Origin: Spirochaetales bacterium
GTDB lineage: Bacteria; Spirochaetota; Spirochaetia; JABEVK01
DNA length: 64,000 bases
Direction of reading: 5' to 3'
Assembly (NCBI GenBank): GCA_037142615.1
Contig: JBAXAI010000012.1
Coordinates: 26,415 to 90,414 of the forward strand
A program made the translations under genes and the position numbers. Shown here piece after piece: positions 11,539-63,537 of the stretch. Every line of letters starts with the position of its first letter. Position 1 is the stretch's first letter. The notes beneath the pieces are model-generated. The model was not told the DNA's origin. It saw nothing but the letters and a program-made list of their open reading frames with translations, and did not search any database.

Positions 11539-13931
11539 TTCGCCGCGTCGACCTTGGTCAGGTGGTAGAGCCTCGACCCGAAGTCGCCGACCAGTCGCAC
11601 CTTTTCGTTGAAGCCGGTGCCGGTGAACTGCGGCGAAGGCCGGAAGCCCGCGTGCATCAGCTCGTCGCCACGCGCGGTGACGGTGTCGGTGCCGAGCGCG
11701 TACAAGTAGTTGTCGGCCAGCACGTTGTGGATCACGCCGTTGGCCTTGATCGGAATCGGTGCCACCTGGCCAATCAGATCGCCCAGCGTGCGGAGGTTGA
11801 GGTACTGGGTACGGGTCTGCAGCAGGTAGTCGGACGCCGCATCGAGACCCGTGAGTCGCAGCGTTTCGTGGCCGCCGTTGGCCGGTTGCAGGCGCTGATA
11901 GTAGCCGACGAGGGCCTCGCTCTGGTCGGGACTGACCACCATCCACAGGCACACGTTGTTCTCGAAGGGCGAGAGCAAACGGTGAAAGGTGCCAAACTGC
12001 AGGGTTTGGCGGTGCCGCTTGTAGTAGGCAACCTGCTTTTCGATCACTTGCAGTTCAAAGCTGGGCAGCTTGGTCAGGTCGAGCTCGTAACCCAGGAGGC
12101 CGAAGGCCGCCACGTGAAAGCGCGTCTCGAGCGGCGTGGTACGGAGCACCTGGTGACTGGGCGCGCCGCTGACGTGGGCCCCCATCGTGCTGGGCGGGAA
12201 CACGTAGCTGGTGCCCCACTGGATTCCCTGGCGCTCCACGGCGTCGGTGTCGTCGCTGGTCCAGGTTTGCGGCATGTACGCGAGCATCCCGAGGTCGAAC
12301 CGGTTGCCCCCGCTGGAGCAGCTTTCGAACAACACGTCGGGGAAGGCTTCGACGAGCCGCTGCAGCAGCGCGTACAAGCCCAAAACGTTGCGGTGCAACA
12401 CTTCTTTCTGCTGGCTGGCGGGCAGCCACGAACTGTAGACGTCGCTGAAGTTGCGGTTGTGGTCCCACTTGACGTAGCTGACGCGAGCGCGCTGGAACAC
12501 GCCGCCCAGGATGCCAAACAGGTAGTCTTGCACCGCCGGATTGCCGAGGTCGAGGAGCAGTTGGTGGCGACCCAGCGACGGTTCGCGGCCGGGCAGTTGC
12601 AGGGCCCATTCGGGGTGGGCGCGGTACAGGTCGCTGTCGATGCTGACCATCTCGGGTTCGACCCACAGGCCGAACTCGAGGCCGGTCTTGTGGATCTTGT
12701 CGGCCAGACCTTCCAGCCCCTTGGGGAGCTTCTTCTTGTGTTCGAACCAGTCGCCCAGGCTGGTGGTGTCGTTGTCGCGCTTGCCAAACCAGCCGTCGTC
12801 GAGCACGAACAGTTCGATGCCAAGTTTTGCCGCCTCCTTGGCGAGCGAGACGAGCTTGGCCTCGCTGAAGTCGAAGTAGGTGGCCTCCCAGTTGTTGATG
12901 AGAACGGGCCGGGCCACCCCCTGCCAGCGTTTGGCAACCAAATGGTTCTGCACCAGCGCGTGGAAGTTGCGGCTCATCCCGCCCAGGCCTTCGGCGCTGA
13001 AGGTCATCACCGCTTCGGGGCTTTGGAAGCTTTCGCCGGGGGCGAGCGTCCAGCCGAAGCCGTGGGGGCTGAGCCCCAGCAGCACGCGGGTGAGGTTGTG
13101 GGGGCTGACTTCGGCCGTGGCCCGGTGGTTGCCGCTGTAAACCAGCGCAAAACCGAAGGCCTCACCGTGCGTTTCGGTGGCCGCGGGGCTGACGAGGGCC
13201 ACAAACGGGCTGTGGTCGGCGCTGCTGACGCCCTTCTTGCTGTCCACTCCCTGAAGCCCGGGGGACAGACCTCGGCGGTGGGGCGTGCGTTCGGCAATCC
13301 ACTTGCCGTCGAGGGTGACGAGCTCAAAGTGGGCGTGACTGAAGTCGTGCTGCAGACTGGCCAAGGCCTCGATCTTGAGGTCGGCGCCACCGGTGTTCAC
13401 GACGCGCGCCGAACGGGCCACGACGTCGGCAGCTTCGAACACGCTCCAACAGAGAACGAGTTGCAAGCCGCAGTGGCGATCCTCGAGGGTAATTTCCAGC
13501 GTTTCAACGTGGTCGCCAAACGTCGAGGGGAGGCCGGCCAAGGCGGGCTTGGAGGCCAAGAGGCGGTGGCTGGCGTAGCGGGGGTCGTGCGTCGAGGTGC
13601 CAGCCAAGGTCGAGGTGCCAGCCAAGGTTGAGGCTCCACCAAACGTGAACTGGGCCGGAGGCTCGCGGTAGTCGCCCTTCCCACTCCCCGACCACTCCAG
13701 GGGAATCGCGTCGAGGTTGAACCCGGGGTGCTTCGGGCTGTAGTCGGTCGAACTGCCCCACGAGGTGGCAAAGCTTTGCACCAGCGAGGCAAAGTCCGGC
13801 CGGTCGGCCAAACGCTGGCCGTAGTGCAGTTGTTGCAGATGGCCAGTGACGGTCACGCGGAAGATCAGACTGGTGCGCGCGGTCTGCAGGTGGAACTCGG
13901 GGCCGGAAGCAAGCGGATGAACATGGATCAT
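11535..13931 (-). CDS. alpha-galactosidase, glycoside hydrolase family 36
   Basis: 798 aa from ATG at 13931 (GGAGA RBS). GH36 motifs LFVLDDGWF, KWDHNR, CSSGGNRFD, WTSDDTD. Contains an in-frame 18-bp tandem repeat. Confidence 0.85.
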   Translation of the reverse strand: MIHVHPLASGPEFHLQTARTSLIFRVTVTGHLQQLHYGQRLADRPDFASLVQSFATSWGSSTDYSPKHPGFNLDAIPLEWSGSGKGDYREPPAQFTFGGASTLAGTSTLAGTSTHDPRYASHRLLASKPALAGLPSTFGDHVETLEITLEDRHCGLQLVLCWSVFEAADVVARSARVVNTGGADLKIEALASLQHDFSHAHFELVTLDGKWIAERTPHRRGLSPGLQGVDSKKGVSSADHSPFVALVSPAATETHGEAFGFALVYSGNHRATAEVSPHNLTRVLLGLSPHGFGWTLAPGESFQSPEAVMTFSAEGLGGMSRNFHALVQNHLVAKRWQGVARPVLINNWEATYFDFSEAKLVSLAKEAAKLGIELFVLDDGWFGKRDNDTTSLGDWFEHKKKLPKGLEGLADKIHKTGLEFGLWVEPEMVSIDSDLYRAHPEWALQLPGREPSLGRHQLLLDLGNPAVQDYLFGILGGVFQRARVSYVKWDHNRNFSDVYSSWLPASQQKEVLHRNVLGLYALLQRLVEAFPDVLFESCSSGGNRFDLGMLAYMPQTWTSDDTDAVERQGIQWGTSYVFPPSTMGAHVSGAPSHQVLRTTPLETRFHVAAFGLLGYELDLTKLPSFELQVIEKQVAYYKRHRQTLQFGTFHRLLSPFENNVCLWMVVSPDQSEALVGYYQRLQPANGGHETLRLTGLDAASDYLLQTRTQYLNLRTLGDLIGQVAPIPIKANGVIHNVLADNYLYALGTDTVTARGDELMHAGFRPSPQFTGTGFNEKVRLVGDFGSRLYHLTKVDAAK

Positions 13932-38751: not shown

Positions 38752-38790
38752 TTGACCTGCCCTTGAACAACATTTGAACTCCCTTTGAAC
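38752..38790 (+). promoter_or_regulatory. four direct repeats TTGACC/TTGAAC/TTGAAC/TTGAAC at exact 11-bp spacing upstream of the OMP-like gene
   Basis: Seen directly at 38752, 38763, 38774, 38785. Same heptamer family (TTTGA[AC]C) as repeats near the two-component system. Confidence 0.45.
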
Positions 38791-38849: not shown

Positions 38850-40124
38850 ATGAAACGAATTGTTCTTGCCTTTCTTGCCGTCGCGTTGACCGGAGTCGGC
38901 GCCTTTGCCGACGACGCGGCCAATGCTGCAACGCTTACGGTGCCGTCGCCCCTGACCGCCGCCATTACCGCCGACGGATACGTCCAGGCGGGCGTGGATC
39001 TCGACAAGGGAACCTTCGGTTTCTCGAACGGCTATGACTTCGGCTTCACGTTCAACCTGCTGCCCGGAACCGGCGTCGCACACGGTGACGGCACCATGAC
39101 CGGTACCCTCAGCGTCAGCGCGATCCGCTTGTTCCATTACGACGGCGTTGGTCTTTCCGCGGGTGACCCGGGCAACGGCCTTGCAGGCACCGCTCCTACC
39201 GTCCTCGCCAGCATCGGCGACGTGGTGGCCAAGCTCGTGATCGGTGACCTCTGGATCCAGCTCGGTGACAACGGCGCCGGACCCGGTGCGAGCGTCAACT
39301 ACCAGCCCGGTTTGGCCAACGATTCGGGCTTCCTCACCAGCGACGACACCTTCTACACCTACAGTGGTGTCTACGGCGGATCCTCGACCGAGTACGGCTT
39401 GTCGACCAAGGGTGCAATTGACCCTTCGGCCGCCGCCAAGGGACTTAGCTTTGGCTACACCCTGCCTAACCTCGTCGGTCTGACTGGTTCGGTGGCCTCG
39501 CTCAACGATTGGAAGACTGCGGGCACCAACGTGTACGAAGTCAAGGGCGAAGCCAGCGTGCTCGTCGACTCCAACCTGACACTGGTTGCCGCCTACGCCA
39601 TGTCGACCGCCGCCAGCAGCGATGCCGGCGTGGGAATCAAGGCTGGCTACAACGTGGGTATTCTGAGCCCCCTGGTCGGTGTTGACTTCAACCTCACAAC
39701 CTCGAAGTACTCGGCCGTTGTCGGTTCCAAGGCCGCGCTGGTCAAGGACCTGCTCAACCTGGCCGCCTACGCCCAGTACGACGCCACCGGCGCCGCCGCT
39801 GTGGCTAACGCCGCCGCCAGCCTCGAAGTGACCGCCGCTCCCCTTGGACTCAAGGTAGCGACCCAGTTGACCGACCTGACCGGAACCCTCAAGGACACCA
39901 TCAACGCCCAGCTGACCTTCGCTGCCACCCCTGACATCGGCGTCTGGGCAAAGATGTCGTTCGACAACCTCGGTGCTTCCAATGCCCTGTTCGCCAAGGC
40001 CGGTGTCGATATCGCAAAGCTCTTGCCTATGACCACCCTCTCGCTCGAGTACGACTCGAACGACCTGATGGGAACCAGCGCCATTCTGGGCGAAGTGTTC
40101 ACCACCCTCAAGGTGACCTACTAA
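38850..40124 (+). CDS. secreted Gly/Ala/Thr-rich protein, outer-membrane/porin-like (C-terminal ...TLKVTY)
   Basis: 424 aa. Signal peptide MKRIVLAFLAVALTGVGAFA. GGAGG RBS. Alternating beta-strand-like composition, aromatic C-terminus. Confidence 0.5.
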   Translation: MKRIVLAFLAVALTGVGAFADDAANAATLTVPSPLTAAITADGYVQAGVDLDKGTFGFSNGYDFGFTFNLLPGTGVAHGDGTMTGTLSVSAIRLFHYDGVGLSAGDPGNGLAGTAPTVLASIGDVVAKLVIGDLWIQLGDNGAGPGASVNYQPGLANDSGFLTSDDTFYTYSGVYGGSSTEYGLSTKGAIDPSAAAKGLSFGYTLPNLVGLTGSVASLNDWKTAGTNVYEVKGEASVLVDSNLTLVAAYAMSTAASSDAGVGIKAGYNVGILSPLVGVDFNLTTSKYSAVVGSKAALVKDLLNLAAYAQYDATGAAAVANAAASLEVTAAPLGLKVATQLTDLTGTLKDTINAQLTFAATPDIGVWAKMSFDNLGASNALFAKAGVDIAKLLPMTTLSLEYDSNDLMGTSAILGEVFTTLKVTY

Positions 40125-40180: not shown

Positions 40181-40491
40181 GTCCGGAAACGACTTGGTAT
40201 TTAACCTGCATTTGACCTGACGTTGAACTAGCCATAACCCGACGTAACCGGGCGTGCGCTAGGATGTCTCTAGAAGTGCGAGAGTGCTGAAGCCCGTGGG
40301 TCTGGAGCGACCGTTCCCAAGGGCAGCAACACACAGCGGTTCAGGGAGGCAGACGTGCCTCCCCTTTTTTTTGGGCCTTCGCTAACACAACCAGTGGTCT
40401 AATGACGCGCCGACCTCTTGCGTCTGGCTGCGCCTCGTCCTCGCCAGACCCAAGACTTCGTCGTGAAGCCCCAAAAAAAATCTTGCCCCCC

Positions 40492-41035
40492 GTCAAGGCG
40501 CAGCCGAAGACACCAGTACGCCCGCCAAAGGTGTTGGACGCAGGTCAAGGCGCAGCCGAAGACACCAAAGTGCCCGCCAAAGGCGCCCGACGCAGGTCAA
40601 GGCGCAGCCGAAGACACCAGTGTGCCCACAAAAGGGCCACGACGCAGGTCAAGGCGCAGCCGAAGACACCAGCATGCCCGTCAAAGGGGCCACGACGCGG
40701 GTCAAGGCGCAGCCGAAGACACCAGCATGCCCGCCAAAGGCGCCCGACGCAGGTCAAGGCGCAGCCGAAGACACCAGTACGCCCACAAAAGGGCCATGAC
40801 GCGGGTCAAGGCGCAGCCGAAGACACCAGTATGCCCGTCTAAGGCGCCCGACGCGGGTCGAGGCGCAGCCGAAGATACCAAAGTGCCCGCCAAAGGTGTT
40901 GGACGCCGGTCAAGGCGCAGCCGAAGACACCAAAGTGCCCGCCAAAGGTGTTGGACGCCGGTCAAGGCGCAGCCGAAGACACCAAAGTGCCCGCCAAAAG
41001 GGTTTGACGCGGGTCGAGGCGCAGCCGAAGACACC
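40492..41035. repeat. 52-bp period tandem repeat (minisatellite), 11 copies: constant 24-mer GTCAAGGCGCAGCCGAAGACACCA plus 28-nt semi-variable part
   Basis: Seen directly. Period exactly 52 bp. Variable part is always a variant of nnnTGCCCGCCAAAGGnnnnnGACGCnG. All six frames open, so ORF calls across it are artefacts. Confidence 0.9.
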
Positions 41036-41072
41036 AGTGTGCACCGAGTAGGCCCTTCCGGGGTGGTGAGTG

Positions 41073-41195
41073 CCCTAGCGCGAGTTCTCCGGTTTGGCTA
41101 AGTCGAGGGGGCGCGAGTACCGCAGCATAGCGGCAGCTATGTGAGGACACGGAGCGTCCCCGAGACGACGCCAAACCGGAGAAATCGCGCTAGGG
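41073..41195. repeat. 26-bp near-perfect inverted repeat (CCCTAGCGCGAGTTCTCCGGTTTGGC / GCCAAACCGGAGAAATCGCGCTAGGG) flanking a 71-bp loop
   Basis: Seen directly (25/26 complementary). Right arm overlaps the stop codon of the response-regulator gene. Lies immediately after the minisatellite. Confidence 0.7.
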
Positions 41196-41909
41196 CTGGA
41201 AGACGTAGCCGATGCCACGGACGGTGGTAATATACCCCTCTGCGTTCGACACCGTTCTCAGTTTCTTGCGCAGCCAAGCCACGTGCACGTACACGGTGCG
41301 CGAGGTCACGAGAGCCTCGTAGCCCCAGGCCAGGCTGAGAATCTTGTCGGTACCGAGCACCTCGTGGGGATGTTCCACAAACAGGCACAAAAGGCGGAAC
41401 TCCTGATGCGAAAGGGGGACGATTTTGCCGGAACGCAACAGGTGTCCACTTTTGTAGTGCAGAACGAACTCACCAAAGACCGTGTCAGCCTTGGTGGTGT
41501 CGAGCCAGTTCTTCTCAAGGGGCAAGGGGGCATCGGTGGTGGCGGGTCCCCGGCGGAGGTGGGCCTCAATCCGCGCCAAGAACTCGTCGTACTCGAAAGG
41601 TTTGGTGATGTAGTCGTCGGCACCGCCGCGCAACCCTTCAACCCGGTCGGCAAGCGAGTCCTTGGCCGAAACGATCATGATGGGCACCGAAGAGCCCGTT
41701 TCGCGAAGTTGGCGGATGATGCGCTCGCCGCCGAAGCCGGGCAACATCAGGTCGATCAGCAGCAGGTCCCAGACCTTGCTGCGCGCCGCCTCCCACCCGC
41801 TGGGTCCATCGTAACACGAGGAGAACTCGTACCCCAACGAAGTCAAGCGATCGCCCACGGCCATGACAAGGCTCCTCGTGTCTTCCACCATCAGGATTCT
41901 TTTGCCCAT
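41190..41909 (-). CDS. OmpR/PhoB-family response regulator
   Basis: Receiver domain (D at LLIDLMLPG) plus winged-helix (VYVHVAWLRKKL...GIGYVF). Confidence 0.85.
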   Translation of the reverse strand: MGKRILMVEDTRSLVMAVGDRLTSLGYEFSSCYDGPSGWEAARSKVWDLLLIDLMLPGFGGERIIRQLRETGSSVPIMIVSAKDSLADRVEGLRGGADDYITKPFEYDEFLARIEAHLRRGPATTDAPLPLEKNWLDTTKADTVFGEFVLHYKSGHLLRSGKIVPLSHQEFRLLCLFVEHPHEVLGTDKILSLAWGYEALVTSRTVYVHVAWLRKKLRTVSNAEGYITTVRGIGYVFQP

Positions 41910-41940: not shown

Positions 41941-41962
41941 GGTCAAATCGAGGTTAAATCGG
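41941..41962 (-). promoter_or_regulatory. two 11-bp direct repeats GGTCAAATCGA / GGTTAAATCGG (TTTGACC-type heptamers read toward the regulator gene)
   Basis: Seen directly in the divergent region between response regulator and histidine kinase genes. Confidence 0.4.
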
Positions 41963-44897: not shown

Positions 44898-44937
44898 GGT
44901 CAAACGACAGCTAAACGTAGGTCAAAGGCCGGTCAAA
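44898..44937 (-). promoter_or_regulatory. four 11-bp-phased direct repeats (GGTCAAA, AGCTAAA, GGTCAAA, GGTCAAA) reading TTTGACC toward the small secreted protein gene
   Basis: Seen directly at 44898, 44909, 44920, 44931. Confidence 0.45.
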
Positions 44938-49683: not shown

Positions 49684-49819
49684 ACGCCAATAGTAATTGC
49701 ACCGGGGCCCGGCGTAAACAGCAAAGAAGTCGACTATTCCGTCCTAATCCCCGTCAACAACCGCCAACGCCGGTCAGGGGCAGACACGAGCGCCCGGGCC
49801 GGTGTATGTTGGCGCACCT

Positions 49820-51658
<1,839 letters not shown>

Positions 51659-51695
51659 TGGAGGGGGGCGTCCCCCCCCTGCGCTCCATAAAAAA

Positions 51696-51720
51696 GGCGG
51701 CCCTCGGGCCGCCTTTTGTT
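51696..51720 (+). terminator. rho-independent terminator of typA (GGCGGCCC-TCG-GGGCCGCC + TTTTGTT), preceded by a G7/C8 hairpin
   Basis: Seen directly. Flanks GCGCTCCATAAAAA and TTTGTTATTGCGCTACCCC are repeated at 63604-63660. Confidence 0.65.
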
Positions 51721-51763
51721 ATTGCGCTACCCCCGTGCGGGGACACCCCTCAAGGCCCGATGG

Positions 51764-51794
51764 TTCGCAAGACTCCGTTGCCCATGCTATAAAG
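51764..51794 (+). promoter_or_regulatory. candidate sigma70-type promoter for the island operon (TTCGCA-18bp-TATAAA)
   Basis: Hexamers at 51764-69 and 51788-93, 20 bp upstream of gene start at 51814. Confidence 0.3.
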
Positions 51795-51813
51795 ATGTTC
51801 GGAGTCCGAACAC

Positions 51814-54800
51814 ATGCGAACCGTAAGAGACCTCTGTACAATTCAGCCCGGTGCCCTCGATGTCAGCGTTTCCGATCAGATCGAACGCCTCGACCAATTG
51901 ATCAACGAAAAAGGCGATGGCAGGGAGTTTTTTGACAAGACATTTGTCACGGAAGGCATGAAAGCGATGCTTACCGAGGGGTTTGCGCGCCTCTCGGGGA
52001 AGTCCTCACAGGCACTGTTCCACCTGAAACAGGCGATGGGTGGGGGAAAAACCCACCTTCTAGTCAGTTTTGGACTCTTGGCCAAGAGCGTCGATCTTCG
52101 CCGCTTGGTCACCCCCAACATCGCCTATCACGAGTCTTTCGTTCCGGCCAAGGTCGCCGCCTTCACCGGACGAAACTATCCCAACGAATACTTCTGGGGC
52201 TCTTTGGCGAGCCAACTTGGTAACCCCGCGCTCTTTTCCCGCTATTGGACCAATGGACCGGACGCCCCAGGTGAGGATGCGTGGCTCCAACTGTTTGACG
52301 GTGACCAACCCATACTCATCCTGCTTGACGAATTGCCACCCTACTTTAACTTCTACCGAACCAAAGAAGTCGGCCAGGGGACTGTTGCAGATATAGCGAC
52401 CAGTGCGCTCTCCAACATGTTTTCGGCGGCTAGCAAGAAGGCGAATGTCTGTGTCGTGATCGCCGATCTTAATGCCGCTTACGAGAAAGGCGCCGCGGGG
52501 ATCAACCACGCGCTCGAGGACGCGAAACAGGAGCTTGGTCGGGGGGCAAAAACCATTACACCGGTTGACTTGGCCGGTAATGAAATCTACGCCATCCTAC
52601 GCAAACGTTTGTTCGCCTCGCTGCCAAGCCAGAGTGCCATCGACGAAGTAGCTGCCGGCTATGGAAGGGCGATCGCCGAGGCCAGCCGGGCCAAGATGAT
52701 CGGTCGGTCAGCCGAGGCGATCGCCGACGAAATCAGCCAAACCTACCCGTTCCATCCCAAACTCAAGAACCTCATTGCGTTGTTCAAGGAGAATGAACAG
52801 TTCCGGCAAACACGTGGCCTCATGGAATTGGTTTCCCGACTTCTGAAGAGCGTGTGGACCCGCGAACTGAACGACGTCTACTTGATTGGCCCGCAGCACT
52901 TTGATCTGTCGATCTCCGAGGTTCGCGACAAGCTTGCTGATATTTCCGACATGGCCGACGTGATTGCCAAAGACTTGTGGGACGCCAACGGTGCCGCACA
53001 TGCTCAGGTGATTGACGCTGATACCCAAAATGACGCTGCTCGCATTGCAGCGAATCTCGTGTTCACCTCGAGCCTTTCGACCGCGCACAACGCGGTTCGC
53101 GGCCTGACTTCCGAGGAAATTCTGGAATGTGCCATTAGTCCGTTTCAAGATGCTGCCAGCATCACTACGGCATTGGAGCAACTCAACTTGCAGGCATGGT
53201 ACTTGCACCACTCGGGCGAAGGGAAGTACTTCTTCGACAGGGTCGAGAACCTGACCAAGCTATTGCAGGACCTCGCGGAGAAGGCACCAAGACCTCAGGT
53301 CGACCAGGTGATTCAGAAGAGACTATCCGATCTCTTTCAGCCGACCCGCAAAGTTGCGTACGAAGAAATGATCGCGCTCCCGACTCTCTCGGAGGTGGAA
53401 GACACTATCCGAAAAAAGCGAGTCCTACTCATTCTACCCCCTGAGGGTAAGATCCCTTCCGACGGACTTGAGAAGTTCTTCCAGTCGATTCAGTCCAAAA
53501 ACAACTTGTTGGTGCTGACCGGGGAAAAGAGCGTGATGGACAACCTTGAGGCCAAAGCAAGGTACGTGTTCGCATCCATCAAAGCTGAATCCAGAATCCC
53601 CAAGGGACACGCTCAGCGTGAAGAACTCGAGCGGAAGCAAGAACAGTACTCTGCTGACCTTCTGACCGCGACCCTCAACACGTTCGATAAGGTAGTGTTC
53701 CCCACCCAACGTTCGGGTCAACAGGCTCGCCTTGTCTCCAAGCCGCTTTCTCAAAGCTATAACCAGAGCAAACCTTACAATGGTGAACAGCAGATAGAGG
53801 CCACGTTGGCGGCGGACCCTCTGAAGTTGTATGTCGATGTTGCCCAAGATTTTGAGGCGATTCGCGACAAAGCGCAGGATTTACTGTGGCCGCAAGGGAG
53901 CGACGATACGAGGTGGACGGACGCTCGAGAGCGGGCAACTCAGGAACCGGCCATGCCCTGGCTACCGTCCGTAGGTTCCGCAGGTCTCGAACTCGTGAAA
54001 CAACTGGCTCTCAGCCATGGCAAGTGGGAAGATCTGGGGAACGGATACGTCACCAAGAAACCCCGCCCCAAGAAGGCGTCGTTGCAGATTTCGCAGGAGT
54101 CGGAGCCCGACGACGAAGGCCGAGTCCGCTTGAGGCTGGTACCTCAGAACGCAGGCAATCAACCCAAAATCTACGTTCAGGAAGAAGGGTCGGTCTCACC
54201 TTCCAGCCCAGTTCATCTAGATACACTGTTTTCAACCAAAGCCTTGTGGGCCGAGTTTCTTGTTGTAGACCCTTCGGGCCAAGCCCTGCCCGGTGAGCCA
54301 ATACGGTGGGACAACGAGCTGGTGATTCGTCATCGGGTAAGCGGTCAAGGAGCCCACCGAAGCGTGGAGTTGTACCTGTCGCCGCGCGGAAAACTTTGGT
54401 ACAGCCTCGATGGTACAGAACCTCGAAACGGTGCCTCCTATGATGGCTCCTTCGAAGTCGCAGAAACGGGAGGCCGGCTGCTTGTCTATGGCAAAGCCGA
54501 CGCCCTTGAAAAAAAGGCTGACTTCACGATTCCGGCAGTTCAGCAAAACGAAGTCACCTTCGACGAGAGTCGGCCCGCAAGTCTAGTTCGGCCTTCACCG
54601 TTTCGCCTTGACTCGCGACAGAAGACATTCGAGCTCTTGGAGCTAGCTGCAACCCAACAAGTGGTGTTTTCCAAACTCTCGCTGGCCGTCGGCCAAATGG
54701 CTTCTGCGATTTCGGTGACAATCCCACAGAAAGAAGTTAGCGCCGAGTATCTTCTGAAGATTGTGAAGGCCATTAGCGACGACCTGCCAGCCAGCGAACC

Positions 54801-54906
54801 TATCACTTTAGGGTTTTGCCGCGCCCAGTTTCGCCTTGGCAAAGAGCTCAAGGAGTTCACCGACCGAGCTGGCTTCAATCCGCAGGCAGGAGACATTGTT
54901 CAGTGA
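51814..54906 (+). CDS. large P-loop NTPase (about 1030 aa; Walker A-like MGGGKTHLL near N-terminus), possibly DUF499-type defence ATPase
   Basis: Walker A GGGKTH at aa about 75. Hydrophobic-DELP Walker B-like (ILILLDELPPYF). No other recognisable domain. First gene of coupled operon. Confidence 0.55.
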   Translation: MRTVRDLCTIQPGALDVSVSDQIERLDQLINEKGDGREFFDKTFVTEGMKAMLTEGFARLSGKSSQALFHLKQAMGGGKTHLLVSFGLLAKSVDLRRLVTPNIAYHESFVPAKVAAFTGRNYPNEYFWGSLASQLGNPALFSRYWTNGPDAPGEDAWLQLFDGDQPILILLDELPPYFNFYRTKEVGQGTVADIATSALSNMFSAASKKANVCVVIADLNAAYEKGAAGINHALEDAKQELGRGAKTITPVDLAGNEIYAILRKRLFASLPSQSAIDEVAAGYGRAIAEASRAKMIGRSAEAIADEISQTYPFHPKLKNLIALFKENEQFRQTRGLMELVSRLLKSVWTRELNDVYLIGPQHFDLSISEVRDKLADISDMADVIAKDLWDANGAAHAQVIDADTQNDAARIAANLVFTSSLSTAHNAVRGLTSEEILECAISPFQDAASITTALEQLNLQAWYLHHSGEGKYFFDRVENLTKLLQDLAEKAPRPQVDQVIQKRLSDLFQPTRKVAYEEMIALPTLSEVEDTIRKKRVLLILPPEGKIPSDGLEKFFQSIQSKNNLLVLTGEKSVMDNLEAKARYVFASIKAESRIPKGHAQREELERKQEQYSADLLTATLNTFDKVVFPTQRSGQQARLVSKPLSQSYNQSKPYNGEQQIEATLAADPLKLYVDVAQDFEAIRDKAQDLLWPQGSDDTRWTDARERATQEPAMPWLPSVGSAGLELVKQLALSHGKWEDLGNGYVTKKPRPKKASLQISQESEPDDEGRVRLRLVPQNAGNQPKIYVQEEGSVSPSSPVHLDTLFSTKALWAEFLVVDPSGQALPGEPIRWDNELVIRHRVSGQGAHRSVELYLSPRGKLWYSLDGTEPRNGASYDGSFEVAETGGRLLVYGKADALEKKADFTIPAVQQNEVTFDESRPASLVRPSPFRLDSRQKTFELLELAATQQVVFSKLSLAVGQMASAISVTIPQKEVSAEYLLKIVKAISDDLPASEPITLGFCRAQFRLGKELKEFTDRAGFNPQAGDIVQ

Positions 54907-55490
54907 ACAATCTGCCCCAGTTTGAAGACTTTGGTGCACCCACTAGGGTGGGCTCTCACATCTTCTTGGTCGATATTCCCATCAGTCGTTCAGAGCCGGT
55001 TCTCATTCTGGAAAACTATGGCTTCCTTGGCGGTGAACGGGGTATTCCCGAGAAGGAAACCCGCGTCAGTCTGAATCGCAGCCATTGGTACGGTATTTCG
55101 GAGATCGCCCGACAAGACTTCAACGATCGGCTCAAGGGCAAGAAGATGACGACGAGCCGATGGACGACCGGCCTGAACAAACTCGACAAGCTATTGGGCA
55201 AAGAACTCTGCGTGCTAGCCTGGGCAGCAGAGCAGTCGTCGTTGGAACAGCTGCCCATCGTTTGCCACAGGTGGGTGTCGCTCCGACCAGAGGAACGCTG
55301 GTGGTTGTTTCGCATGACTGTCGCCGAGGCAGGGCTGGCGCAAGACCTCGACCGAGGCTGGCGAAAGGCCCTCCACTTTGCTCTTTCTGATGGTAAGATT
55401 GACGAGCGGCGCATCAAGCGCCCCCGACCCGATGACGACGACGAGGATTTGTCGTTGTTCGGTGGTTCCGTGCAGGAGGTTCACCAGTGA
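54903..55490 (+). CDS. small protein (195 aa) with acidic C-terminal tail (RPRPDDDDEDLSLFGG), function unknown
   Basis: GTG overlapping upstream stop (GTGA). Always-coupled position between the large NTPase and the AAA ATPase. Confidence 0.45.
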   Translation: MNNLPQFEDFGAPTRVGSHIFLVDIPISRSEPVLILENYGFLGGERGIPEKETRVSLNRSHWYGISEIARQDFNDRLKGKKMTTSRWTTGLNKLDKLLGKELCVLAWAAEQSSLEQLPIVCHRWVSLRPEERWWLFRMTVAEAGLAQDLDRGWRKALHFALSDGKIDERRIKRPRPDDDDEDLSLFGGSVQEVHQ

Positions 55491-56533
55491 TTAGCCACCT
55501 CAGCGTTGAAAACTTTGCGGCACTGGAGCAGGCCGAGCTCGACTTTTCCCCGGGGCTGAATGTCATCCTGGGCGAGAACAGCACCGGCAAAAGTTTGCTG
55601 ATGAAATTGATGTATTCCGGCGCTTGGGTCAGCCACTCCTTGGGGAAAGGCGACCGCAAAACCAAAGATGAGCTGCAGCGAGCCATAGCTGACAAGCTGA
55701 AGGCAGTGTGCATTCCTGAATCTCTTGGGAGACTCGTTACCCGGAAGGCGGGCCGAAATCGGTGCACGGTTCGGGTATCGTTCAGCGAACCCCAGAATGC
55801 CTCATTCGGGTTCTCATTCGCCACAAATAGCGATCGTGAAGCCAAACTCGACGGCGCCACCCCCGAAGGCTACCTGAGCTCATCGCCTATTTTCATTCCA
55901 ACAAAAGAAGTTCTTTCGGTGTTCCCCAATTTTGCAGCGACACTTCGCTCCAAGCACCTCTTCTTTGACGATACATACCTTGATTTGCTCGACGCACTCG
56001 ACCAGCCAGTCAACAAAGGGGCCCCCAAGAAGGACGAAAGAGAACTCCGGGATTCACTGGAGCAGGCAATGGCGGGTCGCGTTGTGTTCGACGGAGGCCG
56101 CTTCTACTACCTGCCCGAAGCAGAGGGCAAAGGGAAGATTGAAATGCCGTTGGTTGCCGAAGGCCTACGGAAGATTTCGATCTTGACCTACCTAGTGATG
56201 AACGGTGGCCTGCGCAATAAGTCTCTCTTATTCTGGGACGAACCTGAGGTTAACTTGAACCCCAAACTGATGCGCAGACTTGCCGTCGTGTTGGTCGACA
56301 TGGCCGAGCGCGGGGTTCAAGTGATCCTTGCCACTCATAGTCTGTTCTTGCTCCGCGAGTTGGTCATTGCTCGCGCCAGTAGCAAGACGAAAGAACCCGT
56401 GCGTTTCTTTGCCCTTTCGAAGCAAGGAGACACGCAGAGGGTGACGCAAGGTGACTCGGTCGAAGAGGTCGACCCGTTGGCCAGTCTCGATGCGGAACTG
56501 GAACAGAGCGATCGGTACCTGGAGCTTCCTTGA
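55487..56533 (+). CDS. AAA/ABC-type ATPase (RecF/SMC-like, AAA_21-like: Walker A GENSTGKS ... Walker B LLFWDEPEVNL ... ATHS)
   Basis: GTG start overlapping upstream stop. P-loop at N-terminus, Q/signature region, D-loop and H-loop spacing typical of the OLD/AbiEii/Septu-PtuA-type ABC ATPases. Confidence 0.7.
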   Translation: MISHLSVENFAALEQAELDFSPGLNVILGENSTGKSLLMKLMYSGAWVSHSLGKGDRKTKDELQRAIADKLKAVCIPESLGRLVTRKAGRNRCTVRVSFSEPQNASFGFSFATNSDREAKLDGATPEGYLSSSPIFIPTKEVLSVFPNFAATLRSKHLFFDDTYLDLLDALDQPVNKGAPKKDERELRDSLEQAMAGRVVFDGGRFYYLPEAEGKGKIEMPLVAEGLRKISILTYLVMNGGLRNKSLLFWDEPEVNLNPKLMRRLAVVLVDMAERGVQVILATHSLFLLRELVIARASSKTKEPVRFFALSKQGDTQRVTQGDSVEEVDPLASLDAELEQSDRYLELP

Positions 56534-57072
56534 TGCAAGTCTTCGACGAGCAGGGAATTGCGTTTGCCTTTCCTGACGACTTTGTCGTTTTTCGCCCTCA
56601 ACACTCCGTTTTTTACAGAAAGTTGTGGCAGCGGTTTTCGATCCCCGACGCGGCGGGCGAGAAAGGAAACAAAGAAGCTGACTTCGTTGCCGTCGACCGA
56701 AAGGAGCAACGCCTTTGGCTCATCGAGGCCAAGGACTATCGTGTCCACGAACGCACCAAGCCCGGGTCACTGTCGCAGGAGTTTGCCCGCAAATGCCGCG
56801 ATTCGCTGGCATTGTTGGCCGCGTTGCAGCTCAGTAGCACCGCAGCCGAGGTTGGCGAAACAGCGAGCGGGCTGTTGGATGGTCTCAAGAAGGTTTCTTG
56901 CGTCTTGCACGTCGAGCAGAAGGCAGGTGAAAAACTTTTCCCGCTGGCGGTCAGACCCACTGACCTGAAAGACGCACTGCGTCGCGAACTACATGCCCTT
57001 GACCCCCAGGCGCTCACGGGTACGGCTGCGGAGCTCGCAACACTTCAACTTCCCTTCACCATCACCGTCTAG
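56533..57072 (+). CDS. small PD-(D/E)XK-like putative nuclease (motif D-x19-EAK: ADFVAVD...LWLIEAKD)
   Basis: 179 aa. ATG overlaps ATPase stop (TGATG). D/ExK arrangement consistent with restriction-endonuclease fold (inference). Confidence 0.4.
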   Translation: MQVFDEQGIAFAFPDDFVVFRPQHSVFYRKLWQRFSIPDAAGEKGNKEADFVAVDRKEQRLWLIEAKDYRVHERTKPGSLSQEFARKCRDSLALLAALQLSSTAAEVGETASGLLDGLKKVSCVLHVEQKAGEKLFPLAVRPTDLKDALRRELHALDPQALTGTAAELATLQLPFTITV

Positions 57073-57080
57073 GAGCCCCC

Positions 57081-59042
57081 ATGCCAGTAGTTCCCTTTTC
57101 CCTCAAAGAAGCACCGGCGTTGATCGAAACGCTGTTCCCGGCCCAGAAGTTGTCGATCGAAGCGTACAAGGAACAGATGGCGGGCAGCGGCAAGACCTTG
57201 ACCGCTTTGGGAAGCTACTGGAAGGGCCGCAAGCCGCTCATCTTGAACCGTGCCTGTGTCTTGGGCTGCCTGCTGCCGGTGACTGCCAACCCCATCCGGG
57301 ACCTCGAGATTTTCGAGAAGCTAATGGCCATGGACGAAACCGCGCTAACTCACCGTCTCAAGGCCAAGAACGACAAGAAGAGTCGCTCTCTTATTTCCAG
57401 CTATCAACATAAGGTCGATGCCGCCTGTCGCCCCGAGGAGTGCGACAACACTTTGTACGACGGGATTTGGCCCGAGGTAAACGCTCACTTGGGCACCGAA
57501 GCGACGAGCTTTCCCGAGTTGGTGGAACAGCTGGGAATCATGCGCTTTGGCCACCGTCCCCGGTTTGCCGACGTGTTTTCGGGCAGCGGGCAGATTCCCT
57601 TCGAGGCCGCCCGGCTGGGCTGCGACGTGTACGCCAGCGACCTGAACCCCGTGGCCTGCATGCTTACTTGGGGCTCGTTTCATTTGGTGGGTGCCCAGCC
57701 CGAGGAGCGGCAAGAGATTGCAGTGGCGCAGGCACGGTTGGTGCAGAAGGTGCAGTCCGAAGTCGATGCCTTGGGCATCGAGAACGACGGCAAGGGATGG
57801 CGGGCTAAGGCCTTTCTGTATTGCGTCGAGGTAAGGTGCCCCCAGACAGGCTGGATGGTGCCGCTGATTCCCAGTTTGATTGTCAGCCAGCCACGTACGG
57901 GCGAGGTGCGCAACAACGTGGTGGTTCAGCTGGTTCCCCTGCCCGCCGAAAAGCGCTACCGCATTGATGTGGTTTCGTTCGCCACTGAAGCCCAACTGGC
58001 TCAAGCCGAACTCGGCACCGTACAGGGCGGCGAGATGGTGCATTCGCCCGACGGTACCAAGGTGTACCGCACCAAGATCAGCACCTTGCGGGGGGATTAC
58101 GCCGAGGGCGGCGAAACCAAGAACAGGCTGCGAATGTGGGAAAAGCATGACTTTGTAGCTCGGCCCCACGACCTATACCAAGAGCGACTGTACTGTGTGC
58201 AGTGGCTTCGCACCAAAGCCGCTGGCCGGGGGCAGGAGTACGAGTTCCGGTCGGTGACTCCCGACGACCTGACGCGCGAGAAAACAGTGATCGACTTTGT
58301 GGGATCACGGCTGGCCGAATGGCAGGCCAAGGGTTGGGTCCCCGACATGGTGATCGAGGCCGGGGCCAAGACCGACGAGCCGATTCGCACCCGGGGCTGG
58401 ACTCACTGGCACCACCTGTTCAACCCGAGGCAGTTGCTGGTGGCGGGGTTGGTGCGGCAAAACATCAACTCCACCACGGCGTTCGGACTGTCGCAGGTGA
58501 TCAACTGGAACAGCCGGTTGTGTCGATGGAATATGGGCAGCGGTGGCGGTGGCAGTATCCAGGACGTATTCTACAATCAGGCTCTCAATACTCTTTTCAA
58601 CTACGGTTGTCGTAACACAGCTCTGGCCCTTACCCAGGTCGACCTCGGTGCCAGGAGCTTTCCTTTCGCCAAAGGAGTGAAGGCTGAAGTGAAGACTCAC
58701 GCGGCCAACGCCATCACCGCGCCCACCGATCTGTTCATCACCGACCCGCCGTACGGCGACGCCGTCAAGTACGAAGAAATCCTCGAGTTCTTCATCGCCT
58801 GGCTGCGCAAGAACCCGCCTGCCGAGTTCAAAGGTTGGGTGTGGGACAGCCGCCGGGTGATGGCCATCAAGGGTGAAGACGACAAGTTCCGGCAGGCCAT
58901 GATCGACGCGTATTCGGCCATTACGCGTTGTATGCCCGACAACGGTATGCAGGTCATCATGTTCACCCACCAGTCGGGCAGCATTTGGGCCGACATGGCG
59001 CACATCGTGTGGGCGGCGGGGCTGCAGGTCACGGCGGCGTAG
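57081..59042 (+). CDS. N6-adenine DNA methyltransferase (motif I FxGxG: DVFSGSGQIPFE; motif IV DPPY: FITDPPYGD), terminated by in-frame TAG
   Basis: AGGAG RBS. SAM-binding motif near aa 165 and DPPY near aa 545 with a large intervening region. Ends at TAG 59040-42. Confidence 0.75.
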   Translation: MPVVPFSLKEAPALIETLFPAQKLSIEAYKEQMAGSGKTLTALGSYWKGRKPLILNRACVLGCLLPVTANPIRDLEIFEKLMAMDETALTHRLKAKNDKKSRSLISSYQHKVDAACRPEECDNTLYDGIWPEVNAHLGTEATSFPELVEQLGIMRFGHRPRFADVFSGSGQIPFEAARLGCDVYASDLNPVACMLTWGSFHLVGAQPEERQEIAVAQARLVQKVQSEVDALGIENDGKGWRAKAFLYCVEVRCPQTGWMVPLIPSLIVSQPRTGEVRNNVVVQLVPLPAEKRYRIDVVSFATEAQLAQAELGTVQGGEMVHSPDGTKVYRTKISTLRGDYAEGGETKNRLRMWEKHDFVARPHDLYQERLYCVQWLRTKAAGRGQEYEFRSVTPDDLTREKTVIDFVGSRLAEWQAKGWVPDMVIEAGAKTDEPIRTRGWTHWHHLFNPRQLLVAGLVRQNINSTTAFGLSQVINWNSRLCRWNMGSGGGGSIQDVFYNQALNTLFNYGCRNTALALTQVDLGARSFPFAKGVKAEVKTHAANAITAPTDLFITDPPYGDAVKYEEILEFFIAWLRKNPPAEFKGWVWDSRRVMAIKGEDDKFRQAMIDAYSAITRCMPDNGMQVIMFTHQSGSIWADMAHIVWAAGLQVTAA

Positions 59043-59045
59043 TAC

Positions 59046-59915
59046 GTGGTCACCGAAACCGACAGCGCCTTGCGCGGCAGCAACAACGTCAAAGGAACAG
59101 TGCTTCTGGTACTCCGCAAACGACAGGGTGAACACAAAAGCAGCCGCAGCGACTTGGGGTGGGAACTGCAAGAAGAAGTCGACCGGCAAGTGCAGACTCT
59201 GACCGGTCTGAACCAGAGCGCGAAGACTCTGTACCGAGACGAAAACTTGTTCAGCGACGCCGACCTACAGATGGCGGGCTACGCGGCGGCGCTGCGAGTG
59301 CTTACCCGGTACACATTCATCGACGGCAAAGACATGCGTATCGAGGCCGGGCGCCCCAAACAGAAGGGCAAGAAGGACTTTGTCGAGCAGCTGATCGACT
59401 TTGCCGTCGAGACCGCCAACGGGGCTTTGGTCCCCTTGGGGCTGGAACGTTCCGTGTGGGAAAAGCTTACCCCCGGCGAGCGGTTCTACCTCAAGATGAT
59501 CGACCTCGAGTCGCAAGGGGCCAAGTCGCTCGACAACTACCAAAACTTCGCCAAAGCGTTCAAGGTGCCTGACTACCGGCTGTACCTGGCCGAAGACCGG
59601 GCCAACCATGCCCGCCTTAAGTCAGGCGCCGATTTTGGACGCAGCGAAATGTCCGACTCTTCCGAACTGGCGGGCACCCGGCTCCGGGGCTTGCTGTATG
59701 GCTTGATGGAACTGGGCCAAGGCGTCGAGTCCGACGATGTGCTGGGTCACCTGAGTCTGAACGTGAAGAACTACTTCAACTGCCGTTTGGAACTTGTCGA
59801 AATCGCCGACTTCTTGGCCGCCAAGCTGGAGCACCTGGACGCCGACCAGGCCAGCCACGCACGCGTGCTGCGCGACCTGGTACGCCACCAGAAACTCGGC
59901 GCCTGGGAAAACTGA
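59046..59915 (+). CDS. C-terminal continuation of the methyltransferase reading frame (289 aa, same frame, separated only by TAG + one codon)
   Basis: 57081 and 59046 are both congruent mod 3. E plus F would give about 944 aa. Either a split gene or nonsense-interrupted pseudogene. Confidence 0.5.
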   Translation: MVTETDSALRGSNNVKGTVLLVLRKRQGEHKSSRSDLGWELQEEVDRQVQTLTGLNQSAKTLYRDENLFSDADLQMAGYAAALRVLTRYTFIDGKDMRIEAGRPKQKGKKDFVEQLIDFAVETANGALVPLGLERSVWEKLTPGERFYLKMIDLESQGAKSLDNYQNFAKAFKVPDYRLYLAEDRANHARLKSGADFGRSEMSDSSELAGTRLRGLLYGLMELGQGVESDDVLGHLSLNVKNYFNCRLELVEIADFLAAKLEHLDADQASHARVLRDLVRHQKLGAWEN

Positions 59916-62665: not shown

Positions 62666-62900
62666 GGGCTCCGGGCAGCGCCCGGCGAGGGGGTAGCGGA
62701 AGACCCCGCAGGCGCAGCCGAGGAGGCTGAAGCGAGGGGGAGACTTCCCCCCTTGGTCCAGTCGACCTACCAAGCTCCTCGGCCGAGATCGGGGCTTTGG
62801 CTAAGCCGAGGGAGAAGCGAGGACCGCAGGCGTACTGGAAGTACGTCGAGGACCGGAGCCGCCCTAGGCGACGCCAAAGACCCGAGATCGGCCGAGGAGG

Positions 62901-63537
62901 GCACGAGCCCATCGAGCACCGCCACATCGACTGCGAAGAAAGCTACACCGGCATCGTCACCGAAAAGCTGAGCATGCGCAAATGCCGCATGACCAACATG
63001 GTCAACCACGGCAGCGGTCGCGTGCGCCTGGAGTTTTCGGCCCCCAGCCGCTCGCTCATCGGTTACCGCGACGAGTTCCTCACCGATACCAAAGGCACCG
63101 GCCTGATGAACAGCTACCTCGCCGGCTACGAACCCTACCGCGGCGAAATCCCGAGCCGTAACAACGGCTCTTTGGTGTGCGACCGCCAGGGCGAAGCCGT
63201 GGCCTACGGCATTTTCCACCTCGAACCCCGCGGCCGCATTTTCGTGGTGCCCGGCGACAAGGTGTACGAAGGCATGATCGTCGGCGAACACAACCGCGAC
63301 CTCGACCTCGACATCAACGTGTGCAAGGAAAAGAAACTCAGCAACATGCGCTCCGCCGGCAAAGACGACAACATTTTGCTCACGCCCGTGAAGCCCATGA
63401 CGCTAGAGGCCAGCCTGAACTTTTTGCGCGACGACGAGTGGCTGGAAGTGACCCCGAAGAATTTGCGGTTGCGGAAGCAATACCTGGGGATTGCGGATCG
63501 GAAGCAACACAGTAAGAAACTCAACGACGGGGTGTAG
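62901..63537 (+). pseudogene. typA: diverged duplicate of the 3' terminal ~640 bp of typA (encodes C-terminal about 211 aa of TypA, no 5' part)
   Basis: Aligns with 51022-51658 at roughly 90% nucleotide identity with mostly synonymous differences. Encoded peptide nearly identical (…DKVYEG… vs …DKCYEG…). Confidence 0.8.

What the first reader, a model, noticed from the sequence alone, without database searches (positions are those of the whole stretch)
40492..41035. 52-bp minisatellite (11 copies) with two hypervariable patches, not CRISPR and not coding
The period is exactly 52 bp. A constant 24-mer, GTCAAGGCGCAGCCGAAGACACCA, alternates with a 28-nt segment that is always a variant of nnnTGCCCGCCAAAGGnnnnnGACGCnG. 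Variation is confined to about 5-nt and about 4-nt patches. Units 9 and 10 are identical, indicating recent expansion. Because 52 is not divisible by 3, and all frames are open only through GC bias, a protein product is implausible. The array lies between a terminated OMP-like gene and a response-regulator gene. It could be a VNTR, a protein-binding iteron array or a repeated small RNA unit.
Basis: seen in the sequence. Interest (0 to 1): 0.55.

Follow-up and report, generated by a model that had tools for sequence, protein, structure and literature searches.

The report
Variable tandem array of palindromic-repeat arms
The 52-bp array is real, is neither CRISPR nor coding, and differs in copy number between near-identical strains; it is a tandem amplification of one arm of a hairpin-forming intergenic repeat family in an uncultured spirochaete, so it is an ordinary kind of bacterial repeat in a lineage where it had not been described.

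Summary
There are eleven copies of GTCRAGGCGCAGCCGAAGAYACCA at 40492-41036, nine of them exact. The spacing is 52 bp, with one unit of 53 bp. The 28-29-nt segments between them are variants of one another.

It is a VNTR. Assemblies that are 99.1-99.8% identical in the flanks carry 11, 12 and 13 cores. They differ by internal 52- or 53-nt units.

It is not coding. GC is flat across codon positions, and the two largest alleles differ by 106 nt, which is not a multiple of 3. It is not CRISPR. The spacers are homologous to each other, the changes are internal, and the 64-kb window has no cas genes.

A species-level relative has the same intergenic block with only two cores. Neutral sites between the two genomes are saturated (46% identity at 4-fold sites). 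The block is still 83-92% identical, so it is constrained.

The constant core is homologous to the 3' arm of a dispersed ~135-nt hairpin element. That family has copies at 41065-41202 and 62769-62905, and a decayed inverted copy at 40396-40476. Twelve of its 36 stem pairs show compensatory change.

Best reading: a REP/REPIN/BIME-like repeat cluster in which a "solo arm + spacer" module was amplified. Its function is unknown. Binding of the neighbouring response regulator and a role as RNA remain minor alternatives.

The parts
40492..41036 (+). Tandem array. It has 11 cores (GTCRAGGCGCAGCCGAAGAYACCA) separated by 10 variable segments of 28-29 nt. The unit order is A B C D E F G H I J K.
41013..41071 (+). 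Terminal unit: core K, which keeps the ancestral G at core position 4, plus a conserved tail GTGTGCACCGAGTAGGCCCTTCCGGGGTGGTGAGTGC. The array spacers are paralogues of this tail (GTGTGCCC-loop-GGCCC).
   Evidence: Alignment with L018 shows near-identity.
41065..41202 (+). Intact long hairpin element I1, with arms at 41072-41114 and 41154-41196. Its 3' arm supplies the stop codon of the response-regulator gene on the minus strand.
   Evidence: Inverted repeat of 43 nt, 84% complementary. Covariance model R1 scores 148 bits. 12 of 36 pairs are compensatory across four copies. The stop codon is TAG here and TGA in L018, with a matching change in the other arm.
40396..40476 (-). Decayed copy (X) of the same hairpin family in inverted orientation, with its central ~56 model positions deleted. 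Its 3' arm is an inverted copy of the array core (GACGAGGCGCAGCCAGAC on the minus strand, at about 40428-40447).
   Evidence: R1 hit of 20.8 bits, E = 0.0015-0.003. The undeleted version in L018 (1617-1748, minus strand) scores 29.7 bits, E = 7e-6 to 1.3e-5. Conservation with L018, including a stretch of about 40 identical bases around 40403-40443, is.
62769..62905 (+). Second intact copy (I2) of the long hairpin family. It lies at the junction between an inserted defence island and a duplicated bipA 3' fragment.
   Evidence: (139.9 bits).
62710..62721 (+). Core-like 12-mer AGGCGCAGCCGA, about 50 nt upstream of I2. It is the only exact match to this part of the core outside the array.
   Evidence: 12 matches against 0.87 expected by chance.

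Best explanation
The array is a copy-number-variable tandem amplification (minisatellite) inside a cluster of extragenic palindromic repeats. The cluster resembles REP/REPIN/BIME clusters.

The genome is an uncultured Spirochaetales bacterium with about 62% GC. It carries a family of ~135-nt hairpin elements. The 3' arm of these elements reads CGAGGCGCAGCC(A/G)AAGAC.

An ancestor acquired the following between the terminator of a conserved small-RNA-like gene and the stop codon of an OmpR-type response-regulator gene:
- one element in inverted orientation (now decayed);
- one or two solo copies of the 3' arm, each followed by a short spacer;
- one intact element.

In the window's lineage the ~52-bp 'solo arm + spacer' module was multiplied to 11-13 copies. 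The likely mechanism is replication slippage or unequal recombination, including at least one three-unit block duplication. Strains still gain and lose internal units.

The 24-nt core stays constant because it is the family's conserved arm, which is the part under constraint. That constraint could be recognition by a protein or pairing with the inverted arm. The spacer is free to drift.

The array encodes no protein and is not an immune memory. Any effect is probably structural, on DNA or on read-through RNA between two convergent transcription units.

Shown: the array, its polymorphism, its non-coding and non-CRISPR nature, the two-core ancestral state, homology of the core to the hairpin arm, structural conservation of the hairpin family, and constraint on the whole block.

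Inferred: the slippage mechanism, the reason for the core's constancy, and the lack of a dedicated function.
For: - Three alleles exist. The window reads A B C D E F G H I J K. L009 and L021 read A B C L M D E F G H (I J K). L020 reads A B C L N D E F G H J K. Flanks are 99.1-99.8% identical.
- A 156-bp higher-order period and the similarity of units B C D to E F G indicate block duplication.
- L018 has the same gene order, with the OMP-like protein 54-56% identical and the regulator 85% identical. It has only two cores, 45 bp apart.
- 4-fold degenerate sites are 45-47% identical, while the intergenic block is 83-92% identical.
- The core aligns with the 3' arms of I1, I2, X and the L022 hairpin. 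CGAGGCGCAGCCAAA is identical between L018 core 1 and the L022 arm.
- The hairpin family shows 12 of 36 compensatory pairs. The covariance model finds three copies in the window, two in L018 and one in L022.
- More distant relatives (L023, L025, L029) have the same convergent gene pair but only short spacers, with no array and no hairpin. The block is therefore an insertion.
- L022 carries the same hairpin family next to an unrelated 35-nt x 12.6 tandem array. Tandem arrays have thus arisen beside these elements more than once.
- Tandemly repeated REPIN clusters of up to about 700 bp are documented in Pseudomonas (PMC3116915, read).
Against: - Only three family copies are seen in 64 kb, so genome-wide abundance is unknown.
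- No REP-associated transposase gene is in the window.
- Classical REP clusters alternate in orientation, whereas these cores are all direct.
- Core diversity of 1.7% against 26.5% in the spacer requires ongoing constraint on the core, and its agent is unidentified.
- Conservation of the whole block well above the neutral level would also fit a dedicated RNA or DNA function.
- The 11- and 12-core alleles are each seen in only one short-read assembly and could be partly assembly collapse.
Confidence: 0.62

Rival explanations
1. The array is a set of binding sites for the neighbouring response regulator (a decoy or iteron array). On the minus strand each unit junction reads GCGCCTTGACCTGC, which is a half-site for the adjacent OmpR-family regulator. 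Eleven such sites spaced 52 bp apart (five helical turns) would bind or titrate the phosphorylated regulator.
For: - Direct repeats of TTTGACC-like boxes at an 11-bp period lie upstream of the OMP-like gene (38752-38790), the small-RNA-like gene (40201-40228), the regulator gene (41941-41957, minus strand) and a 138-aa secreted-protein gene (44920-44936, minus strand).
- GCCTTGACCTG occurs exactly only in the first OMP box and in the array units. Reading the two sequences shows that the shared stretch extends to 14 nt.
- The box-creating A at core position 4 is the amplified state. The ancestral state is G, as in the L018 cores and core K.
Against: - There is only one good half-site per 52 bp, whereas this family binds paired half-sites 10-11 bp apart. 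The neighbouring 11-mer TCTTCGGCTGC matches poorly.
- The L018 cores read TCGAC and lack the box, yet they are conserved. The box therefore cannot explain core conservation.
- The array lies downstream of both flanking genes, with no obvious promoter to control.
- The core is explained independently as a hairpin arm.
Confidence: 0.12
2. The array is part of a functional structured RNA with repeated modules. The block would be transcribed either as the 3' UTR of the regulator mRNA or as read-through from the small-RNA-like gene. The repeated core hairpins (GUC-AA-GGC-GCA-GCC-GAA-GAC) would act as multiple protein-binding or pairing modules, for example a sponge or a stabiliser.
For: - The block is far more conserved than neutral sites.
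- Substitutions among the cores of the window, L009 and L018 fall at unpaired positions of the small hairpin, or keep a G.U pair.
- The inverted core in X is predicted to pair with a core over about 16 bp.
- The long hairpin shows compensatory changes.
Against: - Hairpins in the variable segments are no more stable than shuffled sequences (mean z -0.6 on the plus strand, -0.05 on the minus strand).
- The core hairpin has only 6 bp (z -1.8).
- All four combinations occur at the one candidate covarying pair (units D, L, M, N).
- There is no Rfam match.
- No sigma-70-type promoter match was found, and a strong terminator lies just upstream.
- There is no significant complementarity to the adjacent small-RNA-like element. 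The match to the OMP mRNA is not conserved.
Confidence: 0.15
3. The array is a CRISPR or CRISPR-like array.
For: A 24-nt repeat alternating with ~28-nt intervening segments, and N repeats with N-1 spacers, fit the geometry.
Against: - The spacers are variants of one sequence.
- Alleles differ by internal units, not at one end of the array.
- No cas genes occur in 64 kb.
- The core is absent from viral contigs, and there are no phage or plasmid matches.
Confidence: 0.01
4. The array encodes a protein repeat.
For: - ORFs of 227 and 146 aa span the array.
- A public gene caller annotated a 177-aa product over it (P0001).
- The 15-mer AGGCGCAGCCGAAGA encodes (K/E)AQPKT in genuine repeat proteins of other phyla (L002, L005, L007).
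Against: - GC is flat by codon position.
- The 52/53-nt period rotates the reading frame at every unit.
- The 13- and 11-core alleles differ by 106 nt.
- There is no Pfam hit. The only homologue among 5.8 billion proteins is the same locus.
Confidence: 0.01

Closest known systems
REP / REPIN clusters and BIMEs (repetitive extragenic palindromes of proteobacteria)
   Same: - A short conserved motif occurs in inverted pairs that form long hairpins in extragenic space, directly after stop codons and between convergent genes.
- The sequences are conserved across species.
- Higher-order tandem clusters of several hundred bp exist (PMC3116915).
   Different: - The cores here are all in direct orientation and are solo arms with a variable spacer, not whole REPINs or alternating REPs.
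- The host is a spirochaete.
- No associated RAYT transposase has been seen.
- The family's copy number is unknown.
MIRU-type intergenic minisatellites (VNTR loci of Mycobacterium tuberculosis)
   Same: - The units are about 50 bp, head to tail, and intergenic.
- Unit variants occur within an array, and copy number differs between close strains (MIRUs are described as minisatellites in PMC3635867; unit size is from my own knowledge).
   Different: - MIRUs are not known to be arms of a palindromic element.
- MIRUs often carry small ORFs in phase with the flanking genes. This array does not.
Plasmid centromere or iteron arrays, for example F sopC with 12 x 43 bp (from my own knowledge)
   Same: Regularly spaced direct repeats with a constant, partly palindromic core, at a spacing close to an integral number of helical turns.
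   Different: The context is chromosomal and housekeeping, with no par or rep genes. No plasmid match was found.
CRISPR arrays
   Same: The repeat and spacer geometry.
   Different: The spacers are homologous to one another, there are no cas genes, and growth is not polar.

Membership tests
CRISPR array | Spacers are unique sequences, unrelated to each other | tested here: not met
   The variable segments differ at only 26.5% of sites on average and share the invariant blocks GCCC, AA and GACGC.
CRISPR array | cas genes or a leader with polar spacer addition | tested here: not met
   No cas domains among the window ORFs scanned with Pfam. Allele differences are internal: units L/M/N after C, and unit I.
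CRISPR array | Spacers match mobile elements | tested here: not met
   No blastn match in the phage or plasmid collections. This is a weak test for 28-nt segments.
VNTR / minisatellite | Head-to-tail repeats of a 10-100-bp unit | tested here: met
   TRF period 52, 10.6 copies, score 687.
VNTR / minisatellite | Copy number differs between closely related genomes | tested here: met
   11, 12 and 13 cores in assemblies whose flanks are 99.1-99.8% identical. The 13-core order is seen in two independent sources. Caveat: these are short-read assemblies.
REP / REPIN-like extragenic palindromic elements | Conserved motif in inverted pairs forming a long hairpin in extragenic space | tested here: met
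   I1, I2, X and the L022 hairpin; 12 of 36 pairs compensatory. The core aligns to the 3' arm.
REP / REPIN-like extragenic palindromic elements | Tens to hundreds of copies per genome | tested here: inconclusive
   Three copies in 64 kb, and copies in two other species. The rest of the genome could not be read. The look-up meant to extend the contig failed.
REP / REPIN-like extragenic palindromic elements | A cognate RAYT (Y1 transposase) gene flanked by the repeats | not testable with these tools
   None in the window. The whole genome is not available.
Iteron / centromere-like protein-binding array | Adjacent gene for the binding protein (rep/par), or demonstrated binding | tested here: not met
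   No rep or par genes were found. The neighbouring regulator's putative box occurs once per unit, but not in the ancestral cores. Binding itself is not testable here.
Type III toxin-antitoxin RNA repeat (ToxI-like) | Repeat array directly upstream of an endoribonuclease toxin gene on the same strand | tested here: not met
   On the plus strand the array is followed by the hairpin and the 3' end of a convergent regulator gene. On the minus strand it is followed by non-coding sequence.

The most novel reading that the evidence does not exclude
The amplified units are not passive. A point change in the ancestral hairpin arm (TCGAC to TTGAC) would have created a half-site for the adjacent OmpR-type regulator. 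Amplification would then have built a phased array of 11-13 regulator-binding sites, with a copy number that varies between strains. This would be a tunable decoy, or a nucleoprotein scaffold, that sets the output of a two-component system controlling an outer-membrane protein and a small RNA.
Probability: 0.1. Interest if true: 0.6.

Novelty: new member of a known kind. Interest (0 to 1): 0.3.

Why it matters
The finding extends hairpin-type extragenic repeat families and their tandem clusters to high-GC uncultured Spirochaetales. These have mostly been described in proteobacteria.

It gives a clear case in which the constant part of a minisatellite unit can be traced to the conserved arm of a palindromic element. 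That explains the "constant core / hypervariable rest" pattern without invoking CRISPR or coding.

In practice, the locus is a strain-typing marker for this population. It also breaks assemblies, since one public contig ends inside it, and it produces a false protein in public databases.

The surrounding block is much more conserved than neutral sites. It may therefore hold regulatory RNA or DNA elements of a small two-component regulon.

Tried and rejected
- Rfam at gathering and at permissive thresholds found nothing but chance microRNA-like hits on the long hairpin. No tRNA or tmRNA was found.
- The genome-contig scan for two cores 37-67 bp apart returned only unrelated material. This was GTCATTCTG-AGGCGCAGCCGAAGA-ATC hairpin arrays and (K/E)AQPKT coding repeats in other phyla.
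- The metagenome scan found only the same species. The viral scan found nothing. A viral scan with a hairpin-arm motif gave 9 chance hits, none of which forms a long hairpin.
- Per-unit RNA hairpins in the variable segment are not better than shuffled controls. The apparent compensatory pair 27:46 shows all four combinations.
- The 19/24 complementarity between the core and the OMP mRNA at 39365-39388 is not conserved in L018.
- Pairing between the adjacent small-RNA-like element and the array is not significant.
- Literature full-text searches for the core and related strings found no papers.
- An attempt to extend the contig through an exact-protein look-up failed, as did the first look-up with the regulator ORF.
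- Regulator homologues at 60-72% identity were checked. The others showed no array, except L022.

Full report
**1. The observation**

Tandem Repeats Finder reports one array at 40492-41042, with period 52, 10.6 copies, 86% matches and no indels scored. It also reports a 156-bp higher-order period over the same stretch.

A scan with the 24-mer GTCAAGGCGCAGCCGAAGACACCA finds 11 copies between 40492 and 41036. Nine are exact. The copy at 40857 has two substitutions and the copy at 41013 has one. The only other sequence within 5 mismatches in the 64 kb is a single site at 39388.

Spacing is 52 bp, except for one 53-bp unit at 40648-40700. In a gapped alignment of units A-J, only 2 of 24 core columns vary, against 16 of 29 columns in the rest (Fisher p = 4e-4). 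Mean pairwise difference is 1.7% per site in the core and 26.5% in the variable part.

The variable columns are 25-28, 33-36, 39-46 and 52. GCCC, AA and GACGC are invariant.

**2. Not coding and not CRISPR**

ORFs of 227 and 146 aa cross the array. Their GC content is flat across codon positions (0.66/0.64/0.63). The neighbouring genes show the usual pattern for this genome, for example 0.59/0.42/0.80 for the regulator gene.

The translation has no Pfam family. Its only homologue among 5.8 billion proteins is a 177-aa ORF called over the same locus in another assembly.

The 13- and 11-core alleles differ by 106 nt, which would shift any reading frame.

The features expected of CRISPR are absent:
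- The intervening segments are variants of one sequence.
- Allele differences are internal.
- No cas, reverse-transcriptase or transposase domains occur among the window's ORFs, which are ordinary chromosomal genes.
- The core does not occur in viral contigs.
- The region has no match in the phage or plasmid collections.

**3. Organism and alleles**

The upstream 424-aa protein is 100% identical to a hypothetical protein of a 'Spirochaetales bacterium' MAG.

Three other assemblies of the same species carry the locus. Their flanks are 99.1-99.8% identical to the window. The unit orders are:
- window: A B C D E F G H I J K (11 cores);
- L009 (ENA ERZ4224321): A B C L M D E F G H I J K (13 cores);
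- L021 (NCBI SESG01015026.1): the same order as L009 until its contig ends inside the array;
- L020 (ENA ERZ4200879): A B C L N D E F G H J K (12 cores).

The array therefore gains and loses internal units, as slippage or unequal exchange would produce. Units B C D resemble E F G, which matches the 156-bp period and indicates a block duplication.

Caveat: these are short-read assemblies. Only the 13-core order is seen twice.

**4. A more distant relative shows the ancestral state and the constraint**

L018 (JGI 3300045970) has the same convergent gene pair. The OMP-like protein is 54% identical by BLASTP (56% in a global alignment) and the regulator is 85% identical. At 4-fold degenerate sites the two genomes are 45-47% identical, which is essentially saturated.

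The intergenic DNA is nonetheless 83% identical upstream of the array and 92% identical downstream. This includes a stretch of about 40 identical bases.

L018 has only two cores, GTCGAGGCGCAGCCAAAGACACCA and GTCGAGGCGAAGCCGATGACACCA. They are 45 bp apart and separated by GTGTGCCCCATAAAGGCCCCC. That segment is a paralogue of the sequence following the last core. The 11-13-copy array is therefore a lineage-specific expansion of a pre-existing 'core + short spacer' module, within a block that is under constraint.

Homologous regulator loci at 61-70% identity (L023, L025, L029) have a spacer of only 195-325 bp between the regulator and the OMP-like gene, with no array. The whole block is thus an insertion in the window/L018 lineage.

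**5. What the core is**

Immediately 3' of the array lies a 43-nt-arm inverted repeat (41072-41114 / 41154-41196). A second, related one lies at 62775-62899. L022, another spirochaete contig, has a related hairpin directly after its regulator gene.

Across these four copies RNAalifold predicts one long hairpin. Twelve of its 36 pairs are kept through changes on both sides. In L018 the regulator's stop codon, which lies in one arm, is TGA instead of TAG, and the opposite arm carries the compensating change.

A covariance model built from the four copies also detects two further copies on the minus strand:
- a decayed copy in L018 (1617-1748; 29.7 bits, E = 7e-6 to 1.3e-5);
- an internally deleted copy in the window (40396-40476; 20.8 bits, E = 0.0015-0.003).

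This is the conserved block upstream of the array. Its 3' arm is the 'inverted core' seen there.

Aligning the cores with the 3' arms of all hairpins shows a shared motif, C(G/T)AGGCG(C/A)(A/C)GCC(A/G)A(A/G). CGAGGCGCAGCCAAA is identical between L018 core 1 and the L022 arm. The only other exact copy of AGGCGCAGCCGA in the window lies about 50 nt upstream of the second hairpin.

The constant 24-mer is therefore a solo copy of the conserved arm of a dispersed palindromic element. From left to right the locus contains a decayed inverted element, 11 solo arms with spacers, and one intact element.

L022 carries a different tandem array (35 nt x 12.6) next to its hairpin. This suggests that these elements seed tandem arrays repeatedly.

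**6. Mechanism and rival explanations**

The most economical reading is a REP/REPIN/BIME-like cluster in which one module was amplified and is still unstable. Tandem REPIN clusters of up to about 700 bp are known in Pseudomonas (PMC3116915). The contrast between constant core and variable spacer follows if the arm is the constrained part of the family.

I could not identify what constrains it. No RAYT-type gene is in the window, and the genome-wide copy number is unknown.

Two functional alternatives remain.

*Regulator binding.* TTTGACC-like boxes at an 11-bp period lie upstream of the OMP-like gene, the small-RNA-like gene, the regulator gene and a 138-aa secreted-protein gene. The minus strand of most unit junctions reads GCGCCTTGACCTGC, which is identical over 14 nt to the first OMP box. 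Against this reading:
- There is one half-site per 52 bp.
- The box is absent from the conserved L018 cores.
- There is nothing obvious for the array to regulate.

*A structured RNA.* The block's conservation, the small core hairpin whose substitutions fall in unpaired positions, and the predicted pairing of the inverted core with a core fit this reading. Against it:
- Variable-segment hairpins are no better than shuffled sequence.
- There is no Rfam match.
- No sigma-70-type promoter match was found, and a strong terminator lies just upstream.

**7. Verdict**

It is a new member of a known kind: an intergenic VNTR built from extragenic palindromic repeats, in a lineage where such families have not been described.

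Interest is modest. The unexplained constraint on the block, and the regulator-box coincidence, leave a small chance of something more specific.

Noticed in passing
window 40240-40372 (+); promoter-like region 40195-40255: A conserved small-RNA-like element with its own intrinsic terminator (40344-40363 plus T8) lies between the OMP-like gene's terminator and the repeat block. A 20-nt stretch, GGGTCTGGAGCGACCGTTCC, is invariant in the window, L018, L029 and L030. It is enclosed by a helix with 3-4 compensatory pairs. There is no Rfam match. It is present in relatives that lack the array, so it is older than the array.
   Followed up: partly
window 38752-38790 (+), 40201-40228 (+), 41941-41957 (-), 44920-44936 (-): Direct repeats of TTTGACC / TTGAAC-type boxes occur at an 11-bp period upstream of four neighbouring transcription units: the OMP-like gene, the small-RNA-like gene, the regulator gene and a 138-aa signal-peptide protein gene. 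They look like the binding sites, and so the local regulon, of the adjacent OmpR-family two-component system. TTTGACCT occurs 6 times against 1.4 expected.
   Followed up: partly
window 51659-62900; bipA 49802-51658; fragment 62901-63535: An ~11-kb stretch of lower GC (55-58%) is inserted after an intact bipA/typA gene. It encodes DUF499, DUF3780, AAA_21, DUF1156-methyltransferase-like and SNF2+PLD helicase proteins. It is followed by a 635-nt duplicate of the bipA 3' end (94.5% identical). This looks like a defence island integrated into the 3' end of bipA. Hairpin element I2 sits exactly at its right junction.
   Followed up: partly
window 41190-41196 and L018 about 1985-1991: The regulator's last codon and its stop codon lie inside the base of the long hairpin. 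The stop is TAG in the window and TGA in L018, with a compensating change in the opposite arm.
   Followed up: yes
L022 4849-5283: A different tandem array lies directly after the same hairpin family and the homologous regulator gene in another spirochaete contig, upstream of a lipoprotein-like gene. Its period is about 35 nt with 12.6 copies, and it has a 105-nt higher-order unit. Each unit contains GTGAC-GGCGCTTCGCTG-GTCAC.
   Followed up: partly
L001 5548-5607, L003 1788-1853, L004 23-74, L006 7179-7307: Unrelated MAGs (Planctomycetota, Lachnospiraceae, Pseudomonadales and an unclassified bacterium) carry short tandem arrays. Each has a constant hairpin, GTCATTCTG-AGGCGCAGCCGAAGA-ATC, and a short variable segment (period 37-51). 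One array lies directly after a tRNA gene. The apical GGC-GCA-GCC hairpin is the same as in the core studied here. It is unresolved whether this is common descent or coincidence, since the search selected for the 15-mer.
   Followed up: no
L009 10001-10534 (protein P0001): A public gene caller annotated a 177-aa protein across the array. It is almost certainly spurious. One public contig (SESG01015026.1) ends inside the array, so the repeat breaks assemblies.
   Followed up: yes
window 13591-13633: An 18-bp tandem repeat (2.4 copies, GTCGAGGTGCCAGCCAAG) lies inside a glycoside-hydrolase coding region.
   Followed up: no
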